Virus record (IMG/VR): IMGVR_UViG_2778261268_000002
DNA length: 64,000 nucleotides
Strand: one strand, 5' to 3'
Source: a virus
Taxonomy: Duplodnaviria > Heunggongvirae > Uroviricota > Caudoviricetes
A program made the translations under genes and the position numbers. The notes below the pieces were generated by a model. That model saw only the letters and a list, made by a program, of their open reading frames with translations, was not told the origin of the DNA and did no database searches. This document shows, in pieces, positions 7,832-22,227 of the stretch (its first letter is position 1; every line of letters begins with the position of its first letter).

Positions 7832-8187
7832 AGCACCACGTCCTGTGTGATAGTTATATCCCTGATACGAATGGATATTTTCAACTTATCAAAAGCATCT
7901 CCCTCGGCTACTGACAAGCCAGAAATCGGTATGTCGGGTAAATCTACCGTCAGTTTTTGCAAAAGCATTGCCTCAACCGCAATTTGAACATGTGACAAGT
8001 TGGTCGGTTCGTGTTTAAACTGCGGTAAAACATTGCCCCATGACGGATCTCCGTATACCTCACCCTGATAAGTGTTTAGCCACTCATATAAACGAGCGCC
8101 CCAGGCCTCCTCCTGGGACTCATACGTTTTTACGCCGGATAACTCCAGCGTCAGTAAAGGATCAATTTCATTATTGTTGGCCATCAA
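7828..8187 (-). CDS. Small baseplate-region protein (possibly GPW/gp25-like)
   Basis: 119 aa; coupled to the flanking baseplate genes. Confidence 0.4.
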   Translation of the reverse strand: MMANNNEIDPLLTLELSGVKTYESQEEAWGARLYEWLNTYQGEVYGDPSWGNVLPQFKHEPTNLSHVQIAVEAMLLQKLTVDLPDIPISGLSVAEGDAFDKLKISIRIRDITITQDVVL

Positions 8188-11100
8188 TCAACTCTCGCGT
8201 AGTCATTCATCAACGGATCATCAATTGACAGTGGCACCGTGCGCATAACGCCCGGTTGAGGCGTGCTGACCTTTACGACAGTTCCCTGGCCTTTCGCCGA
8301 GTCTTTAGTGTGCTCTTCAATCCTGGCAAGCAATGAGGTCATCTGCGCAAACAGCCGCTTCGTTTCACCATCAAGTGAAACGGTATTATCAGCCAACTGC
8401 ATTGTCGGCTTGGCACCGGAGCCGCCAAGGTCACTAATAACCTGTCCGTCTATCTGCATACGACCGGTTGGTTGCTGCAAATCGTTGGCGGCAGTCGTCA
8501 CCTGGGACGTGGAGGCTGGTTCAGGCGCATTATTTTTCCGCATCCCCGGCGAGTTGCGGAGTTTATCGAATAGTCCATCAATCCCCATTTGTGCGCCGAG
8601 TTGGTCAAAGTAACTTGAGTTGCTGGCCACCGGACGCGCCTCTTCAACTGGCATCGGAGTATCAACATACACATTGCCAGCTGCTGTTGCGGTCCCCTTC
8701 CCTCGTGCACGTTCTTCGAGCGTTCCCTGAACGACTTCCCGACGCATACCCCGGCCATTCATGAATTTGTTGACCAGATCGTTAACGCCAACAGCATTGC
8801 CGATTTTGTCTACCAGACCGCCTTTCTCAAACGGGCTATCACCAGGGGTAAACGCCAGGCCAGTAGACTGATCGATAACGGCGTTATCAGGTATCTTTTC
8901 GTAAATTGCTGGTGCGCTATGATCTACCTTAGAGCCATAAACGGCACCATTATTGAGCATCTGCTGATACCCTCTGACACGAGTAACATATTCGCCGGTA
9001 CCTGCGACTACTCTCCCCTTATCAACATGCCCCATACCAGCATGATAGGCAGCTATTGCACGACCCTGATCACCGTTATAACGGTTCATCAGCATACTTA
9101 GGTATCTGGCGGCACCATCAGCTGCTTTTCGTGTATCCATGGCATCAGCATCGCTGAGTCCAAGATCCTCCCTTGTACCTTTAGTGATCTGAAAAGCCCC
9201 AAGGGCAGATGAAAGTTTGTTCCCGTTTTTGTCTACTGGATTTCCAGTTCTCTGGCCTGCACTAGACTCTGCGGATGCAACTGCTGACAGAATCCCTTTT
9301 TCAAGCCCATACTTACGTTCAAGCTCATCAAAATAATCGGCATTGTCAGAAATCCATTGGTATCCGGCAGCATTTAATTTTGGCAAAGAAACATCCTTGC
9401 CATTGTTAAATCGACGTTTATCTATCTCATATGCACTTAATGCTTCCTCCTTACCTGTAGCAGACTGCCCCAAGGCAGCATCAATTGTTTGTGCTGCTTT
9501 ATTTCCTGTTTCTACGGCATTTGCATTGATAATCTGATTAGCAGTTTCTTTAACTGTTTTATTGCTATCTTTCGCCATATCCAGGGCCGCATTTATCACG
9601 CGGGCAGCAATATTAGTCTGTTTGGCATCGGATTCAGTTTTAGAATCAGATGTCCCCTGGTGGCTATTAACCGGAGCTTTTAACTCTGGAGTGATTTCTT
9701 TCGCATTAGCCTCGCCGATCGGATTGGGTATTTTTGATACAATCATTGCCGCAGGGGTATTTTTAACGGCATCAACCGCTGCATCTAATGCTTTACCTGG
9801 TAAATTTTTAACCCCATCCCAAATATTACCAGCCGCCTCTTTAATGTGTTTCCCTGGGTTCTTAATGAAATCAATTGCACTATCAATTGCATCACTGAAA
9901 ACCTGTTTCAGGTTATCGACAGTAAAGAAGTCTTTGATGGCATCCAGCTTTTCAAGCAGCTTATTAGATGTATCGCTAAACCATGCTGAAACAGCATCAC
10001 CAATCTTTGCTGTGTAATCATCGAACTTGGTAGAAATGGTGTCGCCAAGGTTAGAAATATATGTTTCTAAGTTGGTAATCCCACTATCAATGGCCAGGGC
10101 AATACTTTCCGTCGAAAATGATTGCAACATATTGCCGATATCCTCAAATCCAAGTGATTTGAGAACCTCACCAATGGCGCTGCTAATACCAGATACCAGT
10201 CCCCCCATATCAAGAACATTAGCTAACGTATAAGCGGCTTTTTGCTGGAATGATGGATCTTGCCCTGATTTAAGCCCAAACGCTCGACGTTGCGCTTCTG
10301 TATCATTCCAACCGGTTACCGCATCATAAATACCTCCAGCCACTGTGCCGACTAGGGGAATTGCGCGTAACGCCCCTTTACCAACTGCCTTTAATCCAAG
10401 TTTACCTGCTGCCCGGGCAGCCAAATCTCCGCCTTCATGGGCGAGAGTCTTCTTGCCACCACCGCGTAGCATTCCTACAAGTTTCTTTGCCCCCAGAGCG
10501 CCAAAAGCGAGTGCTCCAGCTTTTTTCAGCATGCCACGCCCCATTAACAACGACGCGACGCCACCGGCCCCCTTCCCTAACAGGCTAAATAATTTGGACA
10601 GCAAGCCGCCCTTCTTTTTCCCGGTGTTTTTGGCTATCTGATCAAGGGCGCTGAGAATCTTGTCATTGCCCTCTTTAATTTCGCTGGTCTGATCCTGAAG
10701 TTCCTGAACCGTCCGTTTTTGGGTGTTAACCTGAACGACATCGGCACTATTTTGCGATTTACGCCTAAAAAAACCTTTTCTACGGCTGTTATCGTCATTG
10801 CCACGAATCACATCGGCAATAGACTTTCTGGCACCATTAAGCGATCCACCAACTTCTTTTGATATCCCGCCAAGCTCCTTCCCTGCGGCCCACAATGGAC
10901 CAGCAACGGCATAACCTAACGCATCGACGGCACGAGTCTCTGAAGGGTTACCTATGCCTTCAGCTACTTTTGACAGTTTTTTTAATAAACCTGATTCAGC
11001 ATTTAGACGCTCATCATCCTCTTTTCGCCTGGCCTTTTCTGCTCGTTCAGCACGGGCATCTTCCGCTGCGGCCTTACTCCCTGACTTTCCAATAAAACGA

Positions 11101-11558
11101 CCACGCGCATCGCGTTGGTTTTGGCTTTTTTGCGCACCGCCTTTTTGACCGAACATTTCGCGAGCGTGTTCGGCTGCTTCGGTCCGTTGCGCCTTTACAT
11201 CCTCTGGTATAGCCTTCCTGCGTCGTTTTTTACCATTTGGTGTGGTTGATTTGGCCCGCTGTTCCTGTTGAGCAACATCTTCCTGAACTACACGAGAAAC
11301 GTCCCCTAAATTAAGCCGTTTCATTGCGTCAACAATAGGGTCTACTGATGGCGCTTTGGCCACAAAGTCAGGCCGGGAATTTTCGATTGTGTGATTTAAT
11401 GCCGACACGCTGCGAGAGACAGGATCAACAGTAGCAACTCGCCCACCTTTCAAATCTTCAACAGCTTCCCGGATACCAGCAAGCTCTTCCAGCTCTTTTG
11501 CGCTGGCGGTTTCAACTGTCCTTATAACATCGTCAATGTTGGCGTTTTTTCTTTCCAT
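8184..11558 (-). CDS. sit: Tape-measure-like injection protein with soluble lytic transglycosylase domain
   Basis: 1124 aa; Gly/Ala/Lys-rich helical central region; transglycosylase motif ...GAFQITKGTREDLGLSDADAMDTRKAADGAARYLSMLMNRYNGDQGRAIAAYHAGMG. Confidence 0.8.
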   Translation of the reverse strand: MERKNANIDDVIRTVETASAKELEELAGIREAVEDLKGGRVATVDPVSRSVSALNHTIENSRPDFVAKAPSVDPIVDAMKRLNLGDVSRVVQEDVAQQEQRAKSTTPNGKKRRRKAIPEDVKAQRTEAAEHAREMFGQKGGAQKSQNQRDARGRFIGKSGSKAAAEDARAERAEKARRKEDDERLNAESGLLKKLSKVAEGIGNPSETRAVDALGYAVAGPLWAAGKELGGISKEVGGSLNGARKSIADVIRGNDDNSRRKGFFRRKSQNSADVVQVNTQKRTVQELQDQTSEIKEGNDKILSALDQIAKNTGKKKGGLLSKLFSLLGKGAGGVASLLMGRGMLKKAGALAFGALGAKKLVGMLRGGGKKTLAHEGGDLAARAAGKLGLKAVGKGALRAIPLVGTVAGGIYDAVTGWNDTEAQRRAFGLKSGQDPSFQQKAAYTLANVLDMGGLVSGISSAIGEVLKSLGFEDIGNMLQSFSTESIALAIDSGITNLETYISNLGDTISTKFDDYTAKIGDAVSAWFSDTSNKLLEKLDAIKDFFTVDNLKQVFSDAIDSAIDFIKNPGKHIKEAAGNIWDGVKNLPGKALDAAVDAVKNTPAAMIVSKIPNPIGEANAKEITPELKAPVNSHQGTSDSKTESDAKQTNIAARVINAALDMAKDSNKTVKETANQIINANAVETGNKAAQTIDAALGQSATGKEEALSAYEIDKRRFNNGKDVSLPKLNAAGYQWISDNADYFDELERKYGLEKGILSAVASAESSAGQRTGNPVDKNGNKLSSALGAFQITKGTREDLGLSDADAMDTRKAADGAARYLSMLMNRYNGDQGRAIAAYHAGMGHVDKGRVVAGTGEYVTRVRGYQQMLNNGAVYGSKVDHSAPAIYEKIPDNAVIDQSTGLAFTPGDSPFEKGGLVDKIGNAVGVNDLVNKFMNGRGMRREVVQGTLEERARGKGTATAAGNVYVDTPMPVEEARPVASNSSYFDQLGAQMGIDGLFDKLRNSPGMRKNNAPEPASTSQVTTAANDLQQPTGRMQIDGQVISDLGGSGAKPTMQLADNTVSLDGETKRLFAQMTSLLARIEEHTKDSAKGQGTVVKVSTPQPGVMRTVPLSIDDPLMNDYARVD

Positions 11559-13157: not shown

Positions 13158-13748
<591 letters not shown>

Positions 13749-13878
13749 TTAACCGATTCTACGAGTTGTCATTTGTTACCGGTCAGTCTACACATTTCAG
13801 ATACTACGTTAAAACAACTCAAGTGCTTCAAGTAGCACATCGTCATCAACACCCAATCCGAAGATGCGGAGATAAAAT

Positions 13879-15063
13879 TCAAGCCTTAAGAGGCTTTGTG
13901 TATGTTCGTGTAATCCAACCAGTAATAAACTCATCCCCTGATTTAACCTGCACGTAAAGCCATTGACGATCTTTCTTATCTAAAATAGCAACAATTGTGT
14001 TTTTGCCAATGCATTCAATCACTTCACTATTTAAAGAAGGACTGACATGTAATCTTACGTTATCACCAGTTATAAACCTAAAACCATTGAGATCTTCCCA
14101 CTTAATTTCTGTGTTTTCTTTAATTAATTTTTGTTTTGATATTGGTGCATCCTCATATAGGGATACAGAATATGATTCTGTCTTGTGTATTTGCGATAAG
14201 ATTTGTTCTTTTGCATAATCAGCAATAGCGCCAAGCACCACTTCTGTTAAAAGCCACATAATAATAAACTGAAGCGGGTGAGGGAGCGACTTAAATGAAT
14301 CAATGAACGTCGAACTGGATTTATTTAATCCTTTGTCTTGAACATCACTTTCGTTGTGAGATGTTTCAATAGCACCTTCGACATAAGCCTGTGCAATTGA
14401 TGAAAGACTTTGCTCCATTATTTGATGTAATGAAGCCTTTTGCGCTAGGGTATATTGTTTTAATGATTCTTTTATTTCATTGTTTAAATCTATCTTATGA
14501 CTTACATTTTGTCGCAATTCATTAAGTATTGCTTGCATGTTATTTAAACCAGCTTGCTTATTAAGCATCTCGAACTGGTTTCGTAACGGCATAGCAATTT
14601 CTGCCTGCTTCCTTAGCATTTGAATGTATTTATTTGCATCATGCGGGGGATAAACCTTGGCCTGTTTCTGTAGAATTTCAAGAAATTCACGATGCTTGCT
14701 ATTTATTCTTCTCAAGCTCGTCATGTTCGCAAGCTGTTTTTTAACAGAATCACTAAGTAACGATTGCAAATTCAATCTTGCTATTTGTTCTTGAGCTAGC
14801 CGCCCTATTCTTAACTGTTCTTGCAAGTTTGCCATATGTTCTCTATACGATGGAATGATTGCGTTTTTTTGCAGTTCTGCCAACTGTCTAACCAAATTAT
14901 TAGAAGCATATTCTGATTTTAATAAATCACTTGCCGATGTATATCCTGGCATTTTGATTTTACTTAAATTATCACGCCAGGTAATATTTGAATCTCTATT
15001 ATAGAGATCGCTTACTGAGCCAAGTGCAAGTTTTTTAATATCCTTCACTTTATTCACCGTCAT
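13879..15063 (-). CDS. Membrane-anchored coiled-coil protein with C-terminal SH3-like domain (sim-type exclusion operon)
   Basis: 394 aa, AT-rich; one hydrophobic segment FIIMWLLTEVVLGAIADY; C-terminal ...FRFITGDNVRLHVSPSLNSEVIECIG...WLYVQVKSGDEFITGWI. Confidence 0.5.
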   Translation of the reverse strand: MTVNKVKDIKKLALGSVSDLYNRDSNITWRDNLSKIKMPGYTSASDLLKSEYASNNLVRQLAELQKNAIIPSYREHMANLQEQLRIGRLAQEQIARLNLQSLLSDSVKKQLANMTSLRRINSKHREFLEILQKQAKVYPPHDANKYIQMLRKQAEIAMPLRNQFEMLNKQAGLNNMQAILNELRQNVSHKIDLNNEIKESLKQYTLAQKASLHQIMEQSLSSIAQAYVEGAIETSHNESDVQDKGLNKSSSTFIDSFKSLPHPLQFIIMWLLTEVVLGAIADYAKEQILSQIHKTESYSVSLYEDAPISKQKLIKENTEIKWEDLNGFRFITGDNVRLHVSPSLNSEVIECIGKNTIVAILDKKDRQWLYVQVKSGDEFITGWITRTYTKPLKA

Positions 15064-15556
15064 CTTGCTTTAAACATCCATCATTTTTAGCTTCCTTGTA
15101 AATACTTGAAATTCCATCAAGAGAGAATGATGTAATTCGACGCGATCCGATATATACATCCATGTTTTTTTCTTTTGTGGCTGACGCTGACTTCCAAAAA
15201 GAATACCATTCCCTACGATTTGGAGCAGTGTTTTGCGTACCAATATTAAAGCTATCCGGACCAACAATTAAGGTAATTACATCAGCTTTACGAGAAATTG
15301 TGTCGCGTGTAGAAAAATCAGCATTCTCTTTCCCTCCACTTACATACAAATTTCTTCCAGCTATATGATCTTCGGAACCTTCCCTTGCTCCAGCATCACA
15401 AGAAAAGTTAATTGTATAACCATCGTCATTGGTTGCAGAGATTTCTCTCCACCCTTGCTCACCTCCTACCGTCCAAACGGTAGAACCTGCCATTGCTGAT
15501 AATGGCAGAAAAGAGGACATTAATAAAAAGCTATACAATGACTTATATAATTTCAT
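15050..15556 (-). CDS. Secreted protein with signal peptide
   Basis: 168 aa; N-terminus MKLYKSLYSFLLMSSFLPLSAMA; 14-nt overlap with the downstream gene. Confidence 0.5.
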   Translation of the reverse strand: MKLYKSLYSFLLMSSFLPLSAMAGSTVWTVGGEQGWREISATNDDGYTINFSCDAGAREGSEDHIAGRNLYVSGGKENADFSTRDTISRKADVITLIVGPDSFNIGTQNTAPNRREWYSFWKSASATKEKNMDVYIGSRRITSFSLDGISSIYKEAKNDGCLKQDDGE

Positions 15557-15644
15557 ATTTTTATCCTTTTTGTTTTAGATATTATAGGCATAGTCCATAT
15601 TGTTAGATCCACTATGCCCAGAGAATTTAATATTATTCATTAAA

Positions 15645-16136
15645 TTATGGAGCTACACCCGGCCCCCTGGCTCGTTCTTCAAGCGTACCCTGCACGTTTT
15701 GATGGCGCATTCCTGGGGCATTTCTGATTGAGTCAATGCCATTTCTTCCAACATCTTCTTTATTAACGGCATTGCTCGCCACCAGCACACCCCAGCTAGG
15801 GATAGCAAAATCAGGAGCGGTTTCGCATGCCTTTACCATATAATCGAAAGTGCTTCGATTGATCTCATTTGCATCGGGGTTTAATAGGCGAGAATATTGG
15901 TATTTAGCATTTGCGTTGGTTGAGACTTTATACAGTTCCTGCTGCACCATCGCTTCAGAAAGTTTAAGGCGCTTCATATCTGACAGTAACTTCTTGCGCA
16001 TGGATTCGTCTTCACTGACAGCAAATCCGTAAACGTGCCCAAGGTATTTCGTATAATCGGTACAAATCTCCTTTACGCTTGATGCTGCATTAACAGTCCC
16101 AGCCATAAATAATAACGGTAGTAATAGTTTTCTCAT
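15645..16136 (-). CDS. Secreted protein with Sit-like C-terminal motif (SimC-like superinfection-exclusion candidate)
   Basis: 163 aa from ATG at 16136 (RBS AGGTGAGG); signal peptide MRKLLLPLLFMAGTVNA; C-terminal NAPGMRHQNVQGTLEERARGPG is 17/22 identical to Sit NGRGMRREVVQGTLEERARGKG. Confidence 0.55.
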   Translation of the reverse strand: MRKLLLPLLFMAGTVNAASSVKEICTDYTKYLGHVYGFAVSEDESMRKKLLSDMKRLKLSEAMVQQELYKVSTNANAKYQYSRLLNPDANEINRSTFDYMVKACETAPDFAIPSWGVLVASNAVNKEDVGRNGIDSIRNAPGMRHQNVQGTLEERARGPGVAP

Positions 16137-16232
16137 TATAACCTCACCTGCCTTATAACTCATTTAGGGTACATATTTTCGCCTTTAAAAAAAAGAGGTT
16201 ATTAGATCCAATTGTGCATTTATTAAACAAAC

Positions 16233-16249
16233 AATGCTCTAATAAATTT
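16233..16249 (+). promoter_or_regulatory. Repressor (C1-type) operator
   Basis: AATGCTCTAATAAATTT, one mismatch to the recurring ATTGCTCTAATAAATTT motif. Confidence 0.5.
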
Positions 16250-16399
16250 GTATTTTTAAGTCACGAATGCTATCTTTTCGCATCATATTGACCTTTTAAT
16301 CGTTCAGGCTTATAGTTCCGCCGTCGTAGCAAATTCTGCGACCAGGTTTGACAGCCTGAATGATTGTGCGGACAACCGCAGATTTCCGATATTGCGGTA

Positions 16400-16520
16400 T
16401 TTTTGTGTCCGTTAAACCGCGTTACGCCCAAATTATGGTGGGGCGTGATGGGGAGGCTTCGGCCTGCTGGTTTCACAATCGCCAGTCTGTCAACCCTGTC
16501 ACGTCCTGCCACCTGTTTGA
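16400..16520 (+). ncRNA. Candidate c4-type antisense regulatory RNA (boundaries approximate)
   Basis: Non-coding leader between operator and icd/ant with stable hairpins (GGCTTCGGCC, ACGCCC...GGGCGT) and segments complementary to downstream leader sequence. Confidence 0.25.
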
Positions 16521-16563
16521 CAGCGGGTAGCAGGTTGTTAAACCTGATTGTGAGGCCGTAACT

Positions 16564-16785
16564 ATGGGTAATGCCAATCCTTGCGCACGCCAAGAATTCA
16601 TCTGGCGTTTCTATTCCTGTAAAAAACACCACTATCACTTCGTTATCGCAGCAACAGAAGACGAAGCACGCTCTCAATTGCCTGACGGCCCCTGCATTTT
16701 TACTGCCCGTTTTTCAACTAACTCGCGCAATTCACTTAGTTACTGGAGCCTCCCCTTCTCTGCCGACGTTCAGGGGGGTTTATGA
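16564..16785 (+). CDS. icd: Small protein translationally coupled to ant (Icd-like, 73 aa)
   Basis: 73 aa; stop overlaps the ant start (ATGA at 16782-16785). Confidence 0.45.
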   Translation: MGNANPCARQEFIWRFYSCKKHHYHFVIAATEDEARSQLPDGPCIFTARFSTNSRNSLSYWSLPFSADVQGGL

Positions 16786-17825
16786 AAAAACCTCTCGTCA
16801 CCCGTAATGACATAGCCGAAGCGATCGCCCTGCATACTGCCTGTATGCCGACACGGGAGATCCCCGGCGCAATTGCCAACTATTTCATGATAACCAGACG
16901 TTTTTATACCCGAACAGATAAGGCTGTGATCAACAAGCTACTGATAGCCGAGATCAGGGATTATTTGATTGAACAAGGACGTCTACGTTACGCAACAGTG
17001 GCAGCAGAAATGAGAAAGGAGGCACATAGAATGACCGGTAATAATTTGAATGTTGAAAAAACAGCACCTGTTACGTCAGCTACGCCAGCACCAGCCGTGA
17101 ATATCATCCCCAACACCGGAGACACAATCGACAGCCTGACACTGTTAAAGATGGTCAATGAAGCGCGTAAGTTATGTGGGGAACCAGAGGTTCGGAACAA
17201 CAAATTCATCGAAAAAATACTCGACGAATTAGAAGGTGAGGACGGTTACACAAAAAGTGCAACCGTGCCGCCAGGTGGCGGTACGCCTATGGTTGTCATA
17301 ACCATGACCTACAAACAAGCCCTGCGAGTCGCCGCACGCGAATCAAAAGCCGTCCGCCGTTTGCTGATCGACAAACTGGAAGAATTGCAGCAGGCAAACT
17401 CCCCTGCCCCATCGATCCCCCAAACATTACCAGAAGCTCTACGCCTGGCTGCCGAGTTGGCAGAACAGAAAATGCAGCTGGAACAACAGCTGGTGGCCGC
17501 AGCCCCTAAAGTCGATTTTGCCGACCGGGTATCAGTGGCCAATGGAATCCTGATCGGGAACTTTGCAAAGGTCGTTGGACTTAAGCAAAACGCCCTTTTC
17601 TCATGGTTGCGCCAGAACGGCATTCTCATGGCTTTTGGTGCGCGCAAAAACGTACCGCGCCAACAGTACATCAACGCCGGGTATTTCACGGTGAAAGAAG
17701 TGGTGCTGGATGATGAAAATGGCTACCAGATACGGCTGACGCCCCAATTAACGGGTAAAGGCCAGCAGTGGTTAACTCGCAAGCTACTTGATGCTGGTTT
17801 GTTAAAACCAGTAGCAATAGGTTAA
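16782..17825 (+). CDS. ant: Antirepressor (KilAC-type C-terminal domain)
   Basis: 347 aa; C-terminal ...PKVDFADRVSVANGILIGNFAKVVGLKQNALFSWLRQNGIL... paralogous to the KilA C-terminus. Confidence 0.65.
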   Translation: MKKPLVTRNDIAEAIALHTACMPTREIPGAIANYFMITRRFYTRTDKAVINKLLIAEIRDYLIEQGRLRYATVAAEMRKEAHRMTGNNLNVEKTAPVTSATPAPAVNIIPNTGDTIDSLTLLKMVNEARKLCGEPEVRNNKFIEKILDELEGEDGYTKSATVPPGGGTPMVVITMTYKQALRVAARESKAVRRLLIDKLEELQQANSPAPSIPQTLPEALRLAAELAEQKMQLEQQLVAAAPKVDFADRVSVANGILIGNFAKVVGLKQNALFSWLRQNGILMAFGARKNVPRQQYINAGYFTVKEVVLDDENGYQIRLTPQLTGKGQQWLTRKLLDAGLLKPVAIG

Positions 17826-18819: not shown

Positions 18820-19665
18820 ATGCTGGCTAAAGTCACTTTCCTGAGCTGTATAACGATGAGCGATTTTACTTTTTCTGGCTATGAATTGGCCTGCTTTGTA
18901 ACACACTCCGGTCTATCCCGTAGCGCCGGGCATATCCTGTCGCAATGTGCAAATCTCGCGGCAACAACCAGTGAATACTTCATTCACAAGCCTCACCGCC
19001 TGATCGCGGCAGAAACTGGTTATAGCCAATCAACCGTCGTTCGTGCATTCCGTGAAGCTGTAAACAAAGGAATCCTGTCTGTAGAGATTGTTATCGGCGA
19101 TCACCGTGAACGTCGCGCTAACCTGTACCGGTTTACACCATCCTTTTTGGCCTTCGCACAACAAGCCAAAAATGCGCTGATTGAAAGCAAATTAAAGATC
19201 TCTTCAGCCGCAACCAAGGTTAAAGCTGTTCTCGCTAAGACATTGGCTTTATTTGATTTTTTATCCACACCCCCATGTCAAAATGATACCCCCTCCCCCT
19301 GTCAGGATGACGTGGCAATAAAGAATAAGAAGTCACAAATTAAAAAAACAAAAAGATCAGTTTCCGGCGGTGCCGGAACGACCAGACTCAAAAAATTGAC
19401 TTCATGGATCGCTGAGGCAAAAGCAAAGGCTGACAATCTGCGGTTATCCAAAAAACGCGCTCAAAAACATGAGTTCAAGCAGAAAGTAGAGGCGGCAGCG
19501 CGGAAATATACTTACCTGAAGAACAAGCGTTCTCCTGATATTAGCGGGATATCAAACTTCGATAATCTGCCGCATTGCATGACGGTAAACGAAGCTCTTA
19601 ATGCGGTTTTAGCCAAAAATAAAGATAACGAAAAATGGGGTATACCGGCAGGATTCAGAGGGTGA
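18820..19665 (+). CDS. repL: Lytic replication initiator (RepL-like)
   Basis: 281 aa immediately downstream of kilA; basic, helix-turn-helix-like N-terminal region; size and position as for P1 RepL. Confidence 0.55.
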   Translation: MLAKVTFLSCITMSDFTFSGYELACFVTHSGLSRSAGHILSQCANLAATTSEYFIHKPHRLIAAETGYSQSTVVRAFREAVNKGILSVEIVIGDHRERRANLYRFTPSFLAFAQQAKNALIESKLKISSAATKVKAVLAKTLALFDFLSTPPCQNDTPSPCQDDVAIKNKKSQIKKTKRSVSGGAGTTRLKKLTSWIAEAKAKADNLRLSKKRAQKHEFKQKVEAAARKYTYLKNKRSPDISGISNFDNLPHCMTVNEALNAVLAKNKDNEKWGIPAGFRG

Positions 19666-19928
19666 TAGATTGCTCTAATCTGGAGTCACCTGGCATTTTC
19701 AGTTTGAGGTCGGAGATGCAATCTGATTTTTACAGTTAGCGATCACTTTTTGCAGGGCATCGTTGAGACATATCCATATATAAAAACCCAAAGCCAGATC
19801 AAAACTTGTACTGATAAAAACACAGCTAACCATCACAACTTGTAACGTTTATAATGAGTAAAAGAGTGATACATTGCTACTTTTACATATTTTTTGACTT
19901 AATTCATGGATAGTAATGGAGATGCATA

Positions 19929-20984
19929 ATGACTTATGCTGGCACACAAACAGCAGATAACGCCGGGGATACCATGAAATCGTATGCTATTTGGAATAAT
20001 AAAGGTGGCGTAGGAAAGACCTACTTATCTTTCGCTATGGCCTGTGAATACGCAAGGCAAAATCCAGAAAAGCGTATTATTTTTGCAGATATGTGCCCGC
20101 AGGCTAACTTATCTGAAATATTGCTCGGCGGTAACGGTACTGGTGCTGCTAACCTCGCGAGCTTAATTCAACAACGAAAAACTGTCGGTGGGTACTTTGA
20201 CAGAAGAACTCGCAGCCCCCACATGCTTACCGGTTCAGAAACAAGTTTCTTAATTCATGTCTCTGAAATTAACGGGCATGTCCCTGACAATGTATTTTTG
20301 ATTGCAGGCGACCCAAGCCTGGAAGTTCAGGCGCAAGTAATCAATCAGTTAAGCAGCGTAAACTTACCAGTTGACTCATGGAAAAGCATCCACCTGTGGC
20401 TACGAGATTTGCTTGTTGCATGTGCACAACAACAAGGTATCGAAGAAACCATTTGCTTTATTGATTGCAACCCCAGTTTCTCTGCCTATACCGAACTATC
20501 ACTGATAGCAGCAAATGCAATTATAATACCTTGCTCAAGTGATGGTTCTTCGGCTCGAGCAGTGGATAACCTAAGCCAGTTGGTTTATGGCGTTGGAGTA
20601 CAAAACGATTATCGTTCTGTTAACTTTTACGATCGGTGTCAACAGTTTGGTCTAGCGGTTCCTGTCATTCATTCTCTAGTTTTTAATCGTTCGACAGAGT
20701 ATGACAAACGAGCAAGTAAAGCGTTTTCGGCAATGTTCGACGAAATCAGGGATAGAGCTGAAAATCTGCGGACGAATAAACCAACAGCGTTCCAAGGCGG
20801 AAATTTAAAAACGTTTACTGTGCCAGATAACCATTCCGTAGCTATAGTATCTTCCCATCTAGGAAGACCTCTATTTGATATAAAACCAGGCAGATATCAG
20901 ATCCATGATACTGAGCCACAAATCAATAATGAACCATTAGAAAGATATGGTGCAGCAATCGAACGTCTTGTTCAGAGTTTATAG
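19929..20984 (+). CDS. ParA/MinD-family P-loop ATPase (orphan)
   Basis: Deviant Walker A AIWNNKGGVGKT; probable start at ATG 19974; no adjacent ParB-like gene. Confidence 0.65.
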   Translation: MTYAGTQTADNAGDTMKSYAIWNNKGGVGKTYLSFAMACEYARQNPEKRIIFADMCPQANLSEILLGGNGTGAANLASLIQQRKTVGGYFDRRTRSPHMLTGSETSFLIHVSEINGHVPDNVFLIAGDPSLEVQAQVINQLSSVNLPVDSWKSIHLWLRDLLVACAQQQGIEETICFIDCNPSFSAYTELSLIAANAIIIPCSSDGSSARAVDNLSQLVYGVGVQNDYRSVNFYDRCQQFGLAVPVIHSLVFNRSTEYDKRASKAFSAMFDEIRDRAENLRTNKPTAFQGGNLKTFTVPDNHSVAIVSSHLGRPLFDIKPGRYQIHDTEPQINNEPLERYGAAIERLVQSL

Positions 20985-21010
20985 TGGCTTATCTCACTCA
21001 TAATGGCTAA

Positions 21011-21042
21011 AAAAAGGCTGCAACAGAGGTTGCAGCCTTTTT
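21011..21042. terminator. Bidirectional rho-independent terminator
   Basis: AAAAAGGCTGCAAC-AGAG-GTTGCAGCCTTTTT between convergent genes. Confidence 0.65.
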
Positions 21043-21054
21043 TATAAAATTACA

Positions 21055-21342
21055 TTAACAGACTGGTAGCGATAGTAAATTATTATTCCATCGATTGTCT
21101 GCATACGTTCTAATAAACTGCCTTCCACCATTACCAGGATTAACAACCCCAACTTCTACACGATTACCTGCATTATCTGTTACATAGAATGTATGGAGAT
21201 TATTATCAATAGCATTAATTACCTGCTCAACAGTCCATTTCCCATTGCTAGTATTAAATTGAGGACTTCCCACATGAGTAATATGCTCATGGATTGATTG
21301 CGAGCCGGAGAGGGTAATGCAAGTAATGCGTACATCAGCCAT
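21055..21342 (-). CDS. Small conserved protein (DUF3892-like)
   Basis: 95 aa from ATG at 21342 (RBS AAGGAAG); MADVRITCITLSGS...HITHVG...FYVTDNAGNRVEVGVV; AT-rich. Confidence 0.45.
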   Translation of the reverse strand: MADVRITCITLSGSQSIHEHITHVGSPQFNTSNGKWTVEQVINAIDNNLHTFYVTDNAGNRVEVGVVNPGNGGRQFIRTYADNRWNNNLLSLPVC

Positions 21343-21630
21343 ATATACTTCCTTTATTCTATAGATTATAGGAATTGCGTTGTCCAAAAAACAAACAACA
21401 CAATAACAATAAAGAAACATACACACAACAAAAACTAACGCTATTTATTGATAGATTTGCCTGATGAATGCTAGCTCTCTTTGCTGCCTAGCACTCAAAC
21501 AAATAACAGAAGAAAGCCCCAGATAACATTACGCGTCCTGCAAGACGCTTAACATTAATCTGAGGCCATATCCATGCTTAGCATATCTAGATTAACCCTC
21601 TCCCCTTTTAAGGAGCAAGGAATTTTACTG

Positions 21631-22227
21631 CTATGCCGCCTTTCCAGTTATGGATTCAGCGACAAGAACAACCCCATGCTTACTTCGATCTGGGTGTTCA
21701 CTCCATATCTCAGATTCAGGAATACTTACCCCGTCATAGCAAACACGTTCGCCGTCAAACGGGTAATACTGAGCGGCATCGGTGTCGAGGATAAACACTT
21801 TTAGCTCGGAAGAGCGACGGGCGATGTGTTGCCAAAGAGCTTTTCCACCTTCGTATTGCTCATTATCACTAAGCAAAACAACACCAGCTTTTGAGGCTAC
21901 GGTTTCGTAAACAAAAGTAGCTAAACCGACATCACGGACGGTTCCATCAACCACGATACCTTCAATCTGGGCAACATCGCTATCCTCCCAGAACTTCCTT
22001 ACCAGTACGCCTTCAAGCTGCGGGCGACGTTGAAGTTCAAGAGTAGCGACAACCTTATGGCGCATATCACCATCGATAACAGAAGGCGCAGCCTCTATTA
22101 CAGCTGCAAATGGGGTTTTGGAATCCCATATAACCTGGTAAAGCACACCCTGGATGGTAACTCCGTCCAGGATCGAAAATCGACGAGCGACAGTACCCGG
22201 GGAGTACGACATTGGAATCACAGCCAT
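21631..22227 (-). CDS. Hypothetical protein
   Basis: 198 aa from ATG at 22227 (RBS AAAGGGGGA). Confidence 0.5.
   Translation of the reverse strand: MAVIPMSYSPGTVARRFSILDGVTIQGVLYQVIWDSKTPFAAVIEAAPSVIDGDMRHKVVATLELQRRPQLEGVLVRKFWEDSDVAQIEGIVVDGTVRDVGLATFVYETVASKAGVVLLSDNEQYEGGKALWQHIARRSSELKVFILDTDAAQYYPFDGERVCYDGVSIPESEIWSEHPDRSKHGVVLVAESITGKAA

What the first reader, a model, noticed from the sequence alone, without database searches (positions are those of the whole stretch)
13879..16163. AT-rich three-gene envelope operon inside the tail gene block
Two signal-peptide proteins and a membrane-anchored coiled-coil protein with an SH3-like C-terminus form an overlapping operon with visibly lower GC than the flanking tail genes. 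Position and architecture match a superimmunity (sim-type) locus, but the functions of the second and third proteins are unexplained.
Basis: partly seen in the sequence, partly recalled or inferred. Interest (0 to 1): 0.45.

Follow-up and report, generated by a model that had tools for sequence, protein, structure and literature searches.

The report
Envelope gene cassette in P1 sim slot
This is a swappable three-gene accessory cassette in the known variable "sim" slot of a P1-like phage-plasmid; its function is untested, but one secreted protein copies a short invariant motif of the phage's own tape-measure protein, which hints at blocking superinfecting phages.

Summary
The window is a P1-like phage-plasmid. 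The three minus-strand ORFs are real. They lie between the late promoter LPsit/pmgC and the C1 operator/c4-icd-ant1 region, exactly where P1 carries simC-simB-simA. This slot is a published low-GC variable region. None of the three proteins is related to SimC or SimB.

- **ORF1** is a secreted "SimA-domain" protein. P1's 52-aa SimA is a truncated stump of this gene. Its C-terminal tail copies a motif (N..GMR...VQGTLEERARG) that is invariant in the tape-measure/injection transglycosylase Sit.
- **ORF2** is a secreted YfjT-family protein with a confident AlphaFold model and no informative fold match.
- **ORF3** has one membrane-spanning segment, a fast-evolving helical-repeat N-domain and a conserved C-terminal SH3b domain.

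Only ORF2 and ORF3 are AT-rich (35.6% GC, z = -4.1). ORF1+ORF2 is the common pair at this slot. ORF3 is an add-on that also occurs alone in other prophages.

The function is untested. My best guess (about 0.4) is exclusion of superinfecting phage at the genome-injection stage, with ORF1 acting as a decoy of the Sit motif. Overall this is an ordinary accessory cassette with one interesting new lead.

The parts
13756..13774 (-). Late promoter LPsit of the sit-pmgB-tub-pmgC operon. It belongs to the conserved P1 backbone, and the cassette begins just upstream of it.
   Evidence: Mapped from the P1 annotation through the homology block that ends at 13777. The sequence AAATGACAA..TAGAAT compares with P1 AAATGACTA..TAGAAT.
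13786..15656 (-). AT-rich block (ORF2 + ORF3) that is absent from P1, P7 and Ro157c2.
   Evidence: Homology breakpoints. GC is 35.6%, z = -4.1.
13881..13896 (-). Weak terminator-like hairpin at the ORF3 stop codon.
   Evidence: It is analogous to the hairpin plus T-run I read after simC in P1; that record does not annotate it as a terminator.
13879..15063 (-). ORF3, 394 aa: a membrane protein with one membrane-spanning segment (phrog_7086).
14299..15063 (-). ORF3 N-domain (aa 1-255): helical, built from short L-x-K-Q-A-type repeats, variable between alleles, inferred to be cytoplasmic.
   Evidence: Alignment A2. Repeats. dN/dS 0.42-0.72. Secondary structure from a low-confidence model.
14221..14277 (-). 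ORF3 transmembrane segment (aa 263-281).
   Evidence: Kyte-Doolittle 1.83. Position is fixed relative to the C-terminus in all 24 homologues.
13900..14064 (-). ORF3 SH3_3 (bacterial SH3) domain (aa 334-388), inferred to be periplasmic and peptidoglycan-binding.
   Evidence: The endolysin SH3 family phrog_1794 also matches.
15050..15556 (-). ORF2, 168 aa: secreted YfjT-family protein (PF27224, phrog_3429). Signal peptide aa 1-23; conserved Cys53 and Cys161.
   Evidence: AlphaFold pLDDT 83.7.
15575..15630 (.). Imperfect inverted repeat (core GGCATAGT/ACTATGCC) in the ORF1-ORF2 spacer. Function unknown.
15645..16136 (-). ORF1, 163 aa from the MRKLLL start (172 aa if started at 16163): secreted SimA-domain protein (phrog_3933). 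Signal peptide aa 1-17; invariant Cys25 and Cys104. It is a C-terminally truncated allele of the 205-246-aa family.
15657..15722 (-). Sit-like motif in the ORF1 tail (NAPGMRHQNVQGTLEERARGPG). The recombination junction with Ro157c2-type DNA lies exactly at its 3' end.
8694..8768 (-). Matching motif in the tape-measure/injection transglycosylase Sit (aa 931-955, KFMNGRGMRREVVQGTLEERARGKG). It lies about 85 aa after the SLT domain (aa 742-847).
16233..16249 (+). C1 repressor operator (P1 Oc4/Op51) between the cassette and the divergent c4-icd-ant operon.
16310..16516 (+). a1b1 target region and C4 antisense RNA. This is the immI region and the right-hand neighbour of the cassette.
   Evidence: Rfam RF03163 and RF01695.

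Best explanation
The region is the 'sim' variable slot of a P1-like phage-plasmid, filled with a cassette that differs from the one in P1. It encodes three non-structural envelope proteins. They read divergently from the c4 immunity operon and end in a weak terminator-like hairpin before the late promoter LPsit.

1. **ORF1** is a secreted SimA-domain protein. Its C-terminal tail reproduces an invariant motif of the phage's own tape-measure/injection transglycosylase Sit.
2. **ORF2** is a secreted YfjT-family protein with two conserved cysteines (a disulfide bond is inferred).
3. **ORF3** has one membrane-spanning segment, a variable cytoplasmic helical-repeat domain and a conserved periplasmic SH3b domain. 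The domain type suggests peptidoglycan binding.

ORF1+ORF2 is the common gene pair of this slot and probably the ancestral one. P1's simA is a stump of the ORF1 gene. ORF3 is an independently exchanged AT-rich add-on.

The most likely function is superinfection exclusion at the genome-injection stage. Made in the lysogen, these proteins sit in the same compartment that an incoming phage's Sit enters. ORF1 would act as a decoy or competitor for whatever the Sit motif binds, or would bind Sit itself. ORF2 and ORF3 would assist, or act separately, at the peptidoglycan and inner membrane.

Shown here: position, homologies, motif sharing, export and membrane signals, purifying selection, modular exchange. 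Inferred: expression in the lysogen, periplasmic topology of the SH3 domain, any exclusion phenotype, and the decoy mechanism.

I rate identity as a sim-slot accessory cassette at about 0.9 and the injection-stage exclusion function at about 0.4.
For: - **Position.** P1, P7 and Ro157c2 share the flanks and differ only between 13778 and 15656-16234. C4 RNA and the C1 operator lie on the right, and LPsit lies on the left.
- **Literature.** simABC is one of eight low-GC variable regions of P1-like phage-plasmids (PMC9603915). It is non-essential for P1 growth (PMC10695390).
- **ORF1 relationships.** It is 92% identical to P1 SimA over 51 aa and 97% identical to Ro157c2 gp35 over 160 aa.
- **Census.** Among 69 IMG/VR loci with a simA-like gene, 31 carry full-length SimA-like + YfjT, 12 carry that pair + SH3, and 24 carry a stump + simB (18 of them with simC also in view; in the other 6 the locus ends first). 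D6-like Salmonella and Klebsiella elements hold the same pair.
- **Motif specificity.** An HMM built only from five foreign SimA-like tails hits ORF1 (4e-16) and Sit aa 931-959 (7e-12) among 506 six-frame ORFs. The next hit is at 0.049. PHROG Sit family phrog_2533 matches at E = 1.8e-5, and hhalign gives E = 7.6e-6.
- **Motif conservation.** Motif residues are invariant in tape-measure proteins that are only 49-58% identical overall. The Sit C-terminus is about 100% conserved among P1-like alleles, while the SLT region varies.
- **Not a recent copy.** Only 37 of 51 motif nucleotides are identical between ORF1 and sit.
- **Selection.** dN/dS is 0.06-0.14 for ORF1 and 0-0.12 for ORF2, so both are functional genes.
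- **Export signals.** Signal peptides and a transmembrane segment are present.
- **Precedents.** P1 SimC from this same slot is associated with superimmunity. By my own recollection of the older literature it is a processed periplasmic protein that blocks infection after adsorption. Defence proteins that engage tape-measure proteins at injection are known (SNIPE, PMC13190303).
- **Linked variation.** D6-like prophage variants differ both near simB and in sit (PMC6799933).
Against: - No experiment bears on the function, and there is no homology to SimC, SimB or any PADLOC defence model.
- About half of SimA-like proteins keep only N..GMR.Q and lack the GTLEERARG part.
- The test for co-variation between the SimA-like and cognate tape-measure motifs is only suggestive. 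The cognate pairing scores 83 against a permutation mean of 79.2, and 6.7% of permutations do as well.
- ORF3 occurs alone in unrelated prophage contexts, so the three genes need not work together.
- The 35.6% GC block may be silenced by H-NS (my inference). Expression in the lysogen is not shown, and no convincing sigma-70 promoter was found by the scan.
Confidence: 0.42

Rival explanations
1. Lysogenic conversion for the host's benefit rather than anti-phage action. On this reading the secreted and membrane proteins alter envelope properties (adhesion, invasion, serum or stress resistance, cell-wall maintenance) and are kept because they help the lysogen in the gut.
For: - Its one viral relative is labelled 'putative adhesin'.
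- The family name comes from the cryptic-prophage gene yfjT of E. coli K-12, which has no assigned function.
- The P7 lipoprotein at the same slot weakly resembles TraT (E = 7e-5).
- Carriers come from human, cattle, swine and poultry isolates.
Against: - This reading does not explain why ORF1 carries a motif that is otherwise found only in the tape measure.
- The one characterised occupant of the slot, SimC, is associated with superimmunity to phage.
Confidence: 0.22
2. The three genes form two unrelated modules with no joint operon function. ORF1+ORF2 is one unit. ORF3 is a separate self-contained module, for example a membrane sensor/effector for abortive infection or a peptidoglycan-anchored regulator of lysis or cell division, that merely landed in the same hotspot.
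For: - ORF3 relatives stand alone, without a YfjT or SimA-like gene, in another phage-plasmid (L032) and at the end of a P2-like prophage after ogr (L034).
- ORF3 alleles are 53-100% identical while the adjacent ORF1 and ORF2 stay at 95% or more. Its dS is several-fold higher than that of the flanks in most allele pairs compared, which indicates allele swapping.
- 31 of 69 loci have the ORF1+ORF2 pair without ORF3.
- A different cassette pairs a related SH3 protein with a 116-aa multi-pass membrane protein instead of a SimA-like one.
Against: - In P1-like elements, in every locus where the upstream flank was in view, the SH3 gene follows a YfjT-family gene directly, here with a 14-nt overlap that suggests translational coupling.
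- ORF3 has no recognisable effector domain.
Confidence: 0.25
3. One reading: a homologue of the P1 simABC superimmunity operon that works the way SimC does.
For: Same slot, same orientation, an identical SimA N-terminus, and three exported or membrane proteins.
Against: SimC and SimB have no detectable relatives among the three proteins by BLASTP or profile comparison. P1 SimA is only the truncated 5' end of the ORF1 gene.
Confidence: 0.05
4. The genes encode virion or morphogenesis components of the tail, as their neighbourhood might suggest.
For: The cassette is adjacent to pmgC-tub-pmgB-sit. ORF3 aa 52-108 gives weak hits to tail-fibre-assembly families (E = 0.009-0.05).
Against: - Signal peptides and a membrane anchor put the proteins outside the cytoplasm, where tails assemble.
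- The cassette lies upstream of LPsit.
- P1, P7 and Ro157c2 lack ORF3, and P1 and P7 also lack ORF2 and all but a stump (P1) or all (P7) of ORF1.
- The slot is non-essential in P1.
- The weak hits lie in a low-complexity helical region.
Confidence: 0.02

Closest known systems
P1 simC-simB-simA superimmunity operon
   Same: Identical genomic slot and orientation, between LPsit/pmgC and the C1 operator/c4. Low GC. Exported proteins. ORF1 aa 1-51 (172-aa numbering) are 92% identical to SimA.
   Different: There is no SimC or SimB homologue. P1 SimA is a 52-aa stump, while ORF1 keeps the full conserved domain and the Sit-like tail. The phenotype is untested here.
SimA-domain + YfjT-family gene pair of other P1/D6-like phage-plasmids (e.g. 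Escherichia phage vB_EcoM-Ro157c2YLVW gp35/gp34). All are uncharacterised.
   Same: ORF1 is 97% identical to gp35. ORF2 is a 28%-identical homologue of gp34. Order and slot are the same. This pair is the commonest occupant of the slot among loci with a simA-like gene.
   Different: The window's ORF1 is cut right after the motif (163 against 215 aa). Its ORF2 is a divergent AT-rich allele, and a third gene (ORF3) has been added.
Exclusion or defence proteins that act on the tape measure or the tail lysozyme at injection: T4 Spackle (periplasmic inhibitor of gp5 lysozyme), HK97 gp15, TP-J34 Ltp, and SNIPE
   Same: They work alike only in concept. They are envelope-located proteins, encoded by a prophage or the host, that meet the injection apparatus in the periplasm or at the inner membrane. 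SNIPE is documented in PMC13190303. The others rest on my own knowledge of the literature.
   Different: There is no sequence or fold similarity. None of them is known to carry a copy of a tape-measure motif. A decoy mechanism would be a new variant.
E. coli K-12 CP4-57 cryptic-prophage protein YfjT (Pfam PF27224)
   Same: Family membership of ORF2 (precomputed Pfam on the 99%-identical P0077). Small secreted protein with two conserved cysteines.
   Different: YfjT itself has no known function. The family is small: 21 clusters at E <= 0.001 among 1.84 billion representatives.
SH3b cell-wall-binding domains of phage endolysins, and single-span peptidoglycan-binding membrane proteins
   Same: The C-terminal SH3_3 domain also matches the SH3 end of an endolysin PHROG. 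The layout is cytoplasmic N-domain, one transmembrane segment, then an extracytoplasmic wall-binding domain.
   Different: There is no catalytic domain. The N-domain is a variable array of short helical repeats with no known relative.

Membership tests
P1 sim (superimmunity) operon | Location between pmgC/LPsit and the C1 operator Op51/c4, transcribed divergently from c4 | tested here: met
P1 sim (superimmunity) operon | A SimC homologue (the gene tied to the phenotype) | tested here: not met
   BLASTP found none. hhalign aligns only signal-peptide or trivial stretches.
P1 sim (superimmunity) operon | A SimB homologue | tested here: not met
P1 sim (superimmunity) operon | A SimA homologue | tested here: met
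   92% identity over 51 aa. P1 SimA corresponds to the N-terminus of ORF1.
P1 sim (superimmunity) operon | Exclusion of superinfecting P1 after adsorption | not testable with these tools
   Needs plating-efficiency and DNA-entry assays.
SimA-domain protein family (phrog_3933) | Full-length match to the family profile, with the conserved Cys25/Cys104 domain | tested here: met
   phrog_3933 at E = 2.4e-113. Alignment A1.
YfjT family (Pfam PF27224) | Match to the Pfam model | tested here: met
   Precomputed PF27224 on P0077 (99% identical to ORF2) and on the slot's other alleles. The local Pfam copy lacks this model, so it could not be rerun.
Bacterial SH3 domain (Pfam PF08239 SH3_3) | Score at or above the gathering threshold | tested here: inconclusive
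   The window protein scores 26.0 bits against a cut-off of 27. All 24 family members match at E <= 0.001, best 2.3e-9. PF08239 is precomputed on 99%-identical P0001.
PTP-like phytase (Pfam PF14566), for ORF1 | Score above threshold and a catalytic C-x5-R loop | tested here: not met
   25.2 bits against a cut-off of 27. The sequence around the invariant Cys is ACETAPDF, with no Arg.
Known anti-phage defence systems (PADLOC-DB 2.0) | Match to any component model | tested here: not met
   No hit for any of the three proteins at E <= 0.1.
Periplasmic lysozyme/transglycosylase inhibitors (Ivy, MliC/PliC, PliG, T4 Spackle), for ORF2 | Shared fold with a solved inhibitor | tested here: not met
IalB (invasion-associated locus B) fold, for ORF2 | Clear structural similarity | tested here: inconclusive

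The most novel reading that the evidence does not exclude
SimA-domain proteins are periplasmic mimics of an invariant tape-measure-protein segment (F.N..GMR...V.G.L.ERA.G.G). In the lysogen they would saturate the partner that the incoming Sit protein needs, or bind Sit itself, and so block genome injection by P1/D6-type phages. That would be superinfection exclusion by tape-measure mimicry. On this reading the classic P1 simA gene is the decayed relic of that system, and the ORF3 SH3 protein is an independently mobile envelope module layered on top.
Probability: 0.22. Interest if true: 0.65.

Novelty: new variant of a known kind. Interest (0 to 1): 0.38.

Why it matters
P1 is a workhorse phage, and its relatives are common phage-plasmids in Enterobacteriaceae that also spread resistance genes. 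The mechanism of its 'sim' superimmunity has never been resolved.

Two results reframe the locus. P1's simA is a stump of a larger, widely conserved secreted protein. That protein carries a copy of an invariant tape-measure motif.

This gives a directly testable hypothesis for how these elements exclude one another. It also points to a functionally critical, so far unstudied, segment of the injection protein Sit.

If the hypothesis is wrong, the cassette is simply one more uncharacterised accessory cassette in a known hotspot.

Tried and rejected
- **ORF3 structure.** AlphaFold with 24 homologues gave pLDDT 39, so no fold search was possible.
- **Solved-structure sequence searches.** All three proteins gave only a repeat-protein artefact for the ORF3 N-domain and noise for ORF1 and ORF2.
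- **tblastn of ORF3 against 50,697 phage records.** No match. The family lives in plasmid-form prophages that are filed as plasmids.
- **Genome-contig scan for ORF3.** Only two loci, and one is probably contamination in a MAG.
- **Tandem repeats.** There is no DNA tandem repeat in the cassette. The protein self-repeat score (32) barely exceeds the shuffles (maximum 30). The repeat nature rests mainly on the family alignment and on L034.
- **Tail-fibre-assembly hits to ORF3 aa 52-108.** Rejected as similarity between low-complexity helical regions.
- **PTP-like phytase hit to ORF1.** Rejected: it is below threshold and the catalytic Arg is missing.
- **Extended ORF1-Sit homology.** The 99-aa tblastn match to another Sit allele was not supported by hhalign, which aligns only the 20-column motif.
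- **Co-variation of SimA-like and cognate Sit motifs.** Suggestive only: 6.7% of permutations do as well.
- **Promoter scan.** No convincing sigma-70 promoter upstream of ORF1; the only ORF1-side match sits at the start codon and is no better than expected by chance. Only P1's predicted PsimA position is available.
Full report
**What the window is and where the finding sits**

The window is a P1-like phage-plasmid (Punavirus). Megablast of 13600-16800 finds P1, P7, RCS47, SJ46 and others at 94-98% identity, but only over the flanks. To the left lie sit (8184-11558), pmgB, tub and pmgC (13158-13724), all on the minus strand. To the right lie the a1b1 targets and C4 antisense RNA (Rfam, 16310-16362 and 16431-16516), then ant1, kilA and repL.

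Pairwise BLAST places the homology breakpoints precisely. The P1 backbone ends at 13777 and resumes at 15997. Ro157c2 resumes at 15657 and P7 at 16235. The P1 late promoter LPsit maps to 13756-13774, with one mismatch in its -22 box. The C1 operator Oc4/Op51 maps to 16233-16249.

The three ORFs therefore fill exactly the slot that holds simC-simB-simA in P1, upf50.0/upf50.5 in P7 and gp34/gp35 in Ro157c2. They sit at the border between the tail operon and immI, upstream of LPsit, not inside the tail block. The literature lists simABC as one of eight low-GC variable regions of P1-like phage-plasmids (PMC9603915). It also records simABC as non-essential for P1 growth (PMC10695390).

**Check of the observation**

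The ORFs are at 13879-15063 (ORF3, 394 aa), 15050-15556 (ORF2, 168 aa) and 15645-16163 (ORF1). ORF1 most likely starts at 16136 (MRKLLL), behind a GGTGAGG ribosome-binding site, giving 163 aa.

- ORF2 and ORF3 overlap by 14 nt. ORF1 and ORF2 are 88 bp apart.
- GC content: bases 13786-15656 are 35.6% GC, the lowest 1871-bp stretch of the window (mean 47.1%, sd 2.8, z = -4.1). GC3 is 0.27 and 0.29, against 0.41-0.53 in the neighbours. ORF1 is 44.7% GC, close to the backbone.
- ORF1 and ORF2 have classical signal-peptide features (VNA|A and AMA|G). These are conserved across their families.
- ORF3 has one hydrophobic segment (aa 263-281, Kyte-Doolittle 1.83). Its position is fixed relative to the C-terminus (109-114 aa before it, 113 in 19 of 24 homologues).
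- ORF3 also has a C-terminal SH3_3 domain. It scores 26.0 bits against a cut-off of 27, and all 24 family members match.

**ORF1**

Its first 51 aa are 92% identical to P1 SimA (52 aa). The whole protein is 97% identical over 160 aa to Ro157c2 gp35 (215 aa). It belongs to phrog_3933 and to a small family annotated 'simA domain protein', found on roughly 90-kb contigs of Escherichia, Salmonella and Klebsiella.

The family has a conserved domain (aa 17-130) with invariant Cys25 and Cys104. This is followed by N-x-x-G-M-R-H-Q. In about half of the members an x-V-x-G-T-L-E-x-R-A-R-G-x-G extension follows that.

This tail resembles Sit aa 921-957: 51% identity over 41 aa, and phrog_2533 at E = 1.8e-5. 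As a control I built an HMM from the tails of five foreign SimA-like proteins only and searched all 506 six-frame ORFs of the window. It hit ORF1 (4e-16) and Sit aa 931-959 (7e-12). The next hit was at 0.049. Profile-profile comparison agrees (E = 7.6e-6) but limits the similarity to about 20 columns.

- The motif lies about 85 aa after the SLT domain (aa 742-847).
- It sits in a C-terminal region that is close to 100% conserved among ten P1-like Sit alleles, whereas the SLT region varies at 70-86%.
- Its key residues are invariant even in D6-like tape measures that are only 49-58% identical overall.
- At the DNA level only 37 of 51 core bases match. The similarity is therefore maintained at the protein level rather than being a recent gene conversion.
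- Lineage-specific matches between each SimA-like tail and its own tape measure exist (AP/AP, SR/SR, GV.P/GV.P). A permutation test on five lineages is only suggestive: 6.7% of permutations do as well as the cognate pairing.
- In this window the recombination junction with Ro157c2-type DNA (15657) falls exactly at the end of the motif. ORF1 is therefore a truncated allele that keeps the motif.

**ORF2**

It is 28% identical (E = 6e-24) to Ro157c2 gp34 and belongs to phrog_3429. Its 99%-identical cluster representative carries the new Pfam family PF27224 (YfjT). So do the corresponding genes in other P1/D6-like elements. The literature gives no function for YfjT.

An exhaustive HMMER search of 1.84 billion representatives found only 21 clusters at E <= 0.001. 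The alignment shows a signal peptide, invariant Trp28, Gly35, Gly46 and Cys53, and nearly invariant Cys161.

**ORF3**

It belongs to phrog_7086. Only 47 clusters turned up among 5.8 billion proteins, all Enterobacteriaceae (mainly Escherichia, Citrobacter and Salmonella) where an organism is named, and mostly on 90-100-kb contigs.

The C-terminal 130 aa (transmembrane segment, linker, SH3) are highly conserved. The N-terminal 255 aa vary in length and sequence and are built from short L-x-K-Q-A-type helical repeats. One relative at the end of a P2-like prophage has about 11 perfect tandem repeats.

dN/dS is 0.42-0.72 for the N-domain and 0.05-0.32 for the C-terminal part. Its dS exceeds that of the flanking genes several-fold in most allele pairs compared, and ORF3 alleles of 53-100% identity sit next to ORF1 and ORF2 alleles of 95% or more. 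Together these indicate allele swapping.

Relatives occur alone, without a YfjT or SimA-like gene, in another phage-plasmid (L032) and in the P2-like prophage (L034). The AlphaFold model was poor (pLDDT 39), so no fold search was possible. I infer the topology (N-terminus in, SH3 out) from the absence of a signal peptide before a 260-aa N-domain and from the usual extracytoplasmic role of SH3b domains. It is not shown.

**Evolution of the slot**

Among 69 IMG/VR loci with a simA-like gene:

| Arrangement | Loci |
|---|---|
| Full-length SimA-like + YfjT | 31 |
| That pair + SH3 (this window's type) | 12 |
| P1 arrangement: simA stump + simB (simC also in view in 18; in the other 6 the locus ends first) | 24 |
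| Full-length SimA-like + SimC | 1 |
| Incomplete | 1 |

Divergent D6-like elements from Salmonella and Klebsiella also carry SimA-like + YfjT directly before pmgC. The SimA-like + YfjT pair is therefore the common state and probably the ancestral one. P1's sim operon is derived, and its simA is a relic.

The window's cassette occurs in 35 of 510 matching PLSDB plasmids. The ORF2+ORF3 block occurs in 24 of 5,426 complete E. coli genomes, and 70 of the 71 matching places are on plasmids. ORF1 and ORF2 are under purifying selection (dN/dS 0.06-0.14 and 0-0.12).

**Mechanism**

Shown here:
- three exported or membrane proteins, encoded outside the late operon in a dispensable hotspot;
- ORF1 carrying a copy of an invariant tape-measure motif.

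Established knowledge (my own): the C-terminal end of a tape measure sits at the tail tip and is the first part expelled into the periplasm. P1 SimC, from this same slot, is a processed periplasmic protein that blocks infection after adsorption. Several exclusion or defence proteins act on tape measures or tail lysozymes (T4 Spackle, HK97 gp15, TP-J34 Ltp). SNIPE is documented in PMC13190303.

Inference: the cassette acts in the lysogen's envelope on incoming P1/D6-type phages. ORF1 would compete with, or bind to, the Sit segment.

One published observation fits an interaction: D6-like variants differ both near simB and in sit (PMC6799933).

Against this reading:
- There is no phenotype data.
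- There is no homology to SimC, SimB or PADLOC models.
- Many family members carry only a partial motif.
- The ORF2 fold is uninformative.
- ORF3 is modular and independent.
- Expression is unproven.

I put about 0.9 on 'accessory envelope cassette of the sim slot, not SimC-type' and about 0.4 on 'injection-stage exclusion'.

**Comparison with known systems and verdict**

The cassette is not a member of the P1 sim operon in the sense that matters, because SimC is absent. It works, at most, like one. The components are annotated in databases as 'simA domain protein', 'hypothetical protein' and 'SH3 domain-containing protein', and none has been characterised.

The cassette is a new variant of a known kind of element: variable accessory genes, plausibly for exclusion, in the P1 sim hotspot. 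As far as the searched literature shows, two points are new. P1 simA is recognised as a stump of a conserved gene paired with yfjT. A tape-measure motif is shared with the SimA-like protein. Interest is moderate: the locus is ordinary, and the motif lead is testable.

Noticed in passing
window 8184-11558 (sit), aa 934-939 and 1002-1008: Sit carries two copies of the N-x-x-G-M-R core. The first has the VQGTLEERARG extension and the second (NSPGMRKNN) does not. Both lie in the near-invariant C-terminal quarter.
   Followed up: partly
window 15575-15630: An imperfect inverted repeat (core GGCATAGT/ACTATGCC, 16-nt spacer) lies in the 88-bp gap between ORF1 and ORF2. It could be an operator, an RNA hairpin or a module junction.
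   Followed up: no
window 13725-13771: A 17-nt inverted repeat (88% complementary) spans the LPsit -10 box and the pmgC start. It is conserved with P1, so the late leader could form a hairpin.
   Followed up: no
window 16233, 17904, 34089, 37365, 37376, 47785, 53551: Seven matches to the C1-operator consensus (2 mismatches or fewer; 0.03 expected by chance). They map the C1 regulon of this element.
   Followed up: no
L004 7077-9035 (and L005-L007, L017-L023, L033): An alternative cassette occupies the same slot: a 116-aa multi-pass membrane protein, a divergent YfjT-family protein (158 aa) and a 344-aa SH3 protein. It has no SimA-like gene.
   Followed up: partly
L034 1633-3210: A 525-aa relative of ORF3 lies at the end of a P2-like prophage, just after ogr. 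It has about 11 tandem copies of MTASSTFANAERAMKAMENA ahead of the conserved transmembrane + SH3 module.
   Followed up: partly
L003 3249-3770 (P7 upf50.5): The P7 lipoprotein that occupies the sim slot has a weak hit to the TraT surface-exclusion lipoprotein family (E = 7.2e-5, below threshold).
   Followed up: no
L015 7377-7553: One plasmid has a second YfjT-like gene fragment and about 1.2 kb of extra DNA between the SH3 gene and pmgC. This suggests repeated insertion at the slot.
   Followed up: no
E. coli genomes NZ_CP015229.1 1824265-1825178: The only chromosomal copy of the SH3 gene variant is in E. coli 06-00048. The same strain also has a plasmid copy (NZ_CP012497.1), which suggests an integrated P1-like element.
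   Followed up: no
window 19500-21900: A second, milder low-GC stretch (about 40-43% GC) lies downstream of repL. It probably corresponds to another published variable region of P1-like elements.
   Followed up: no
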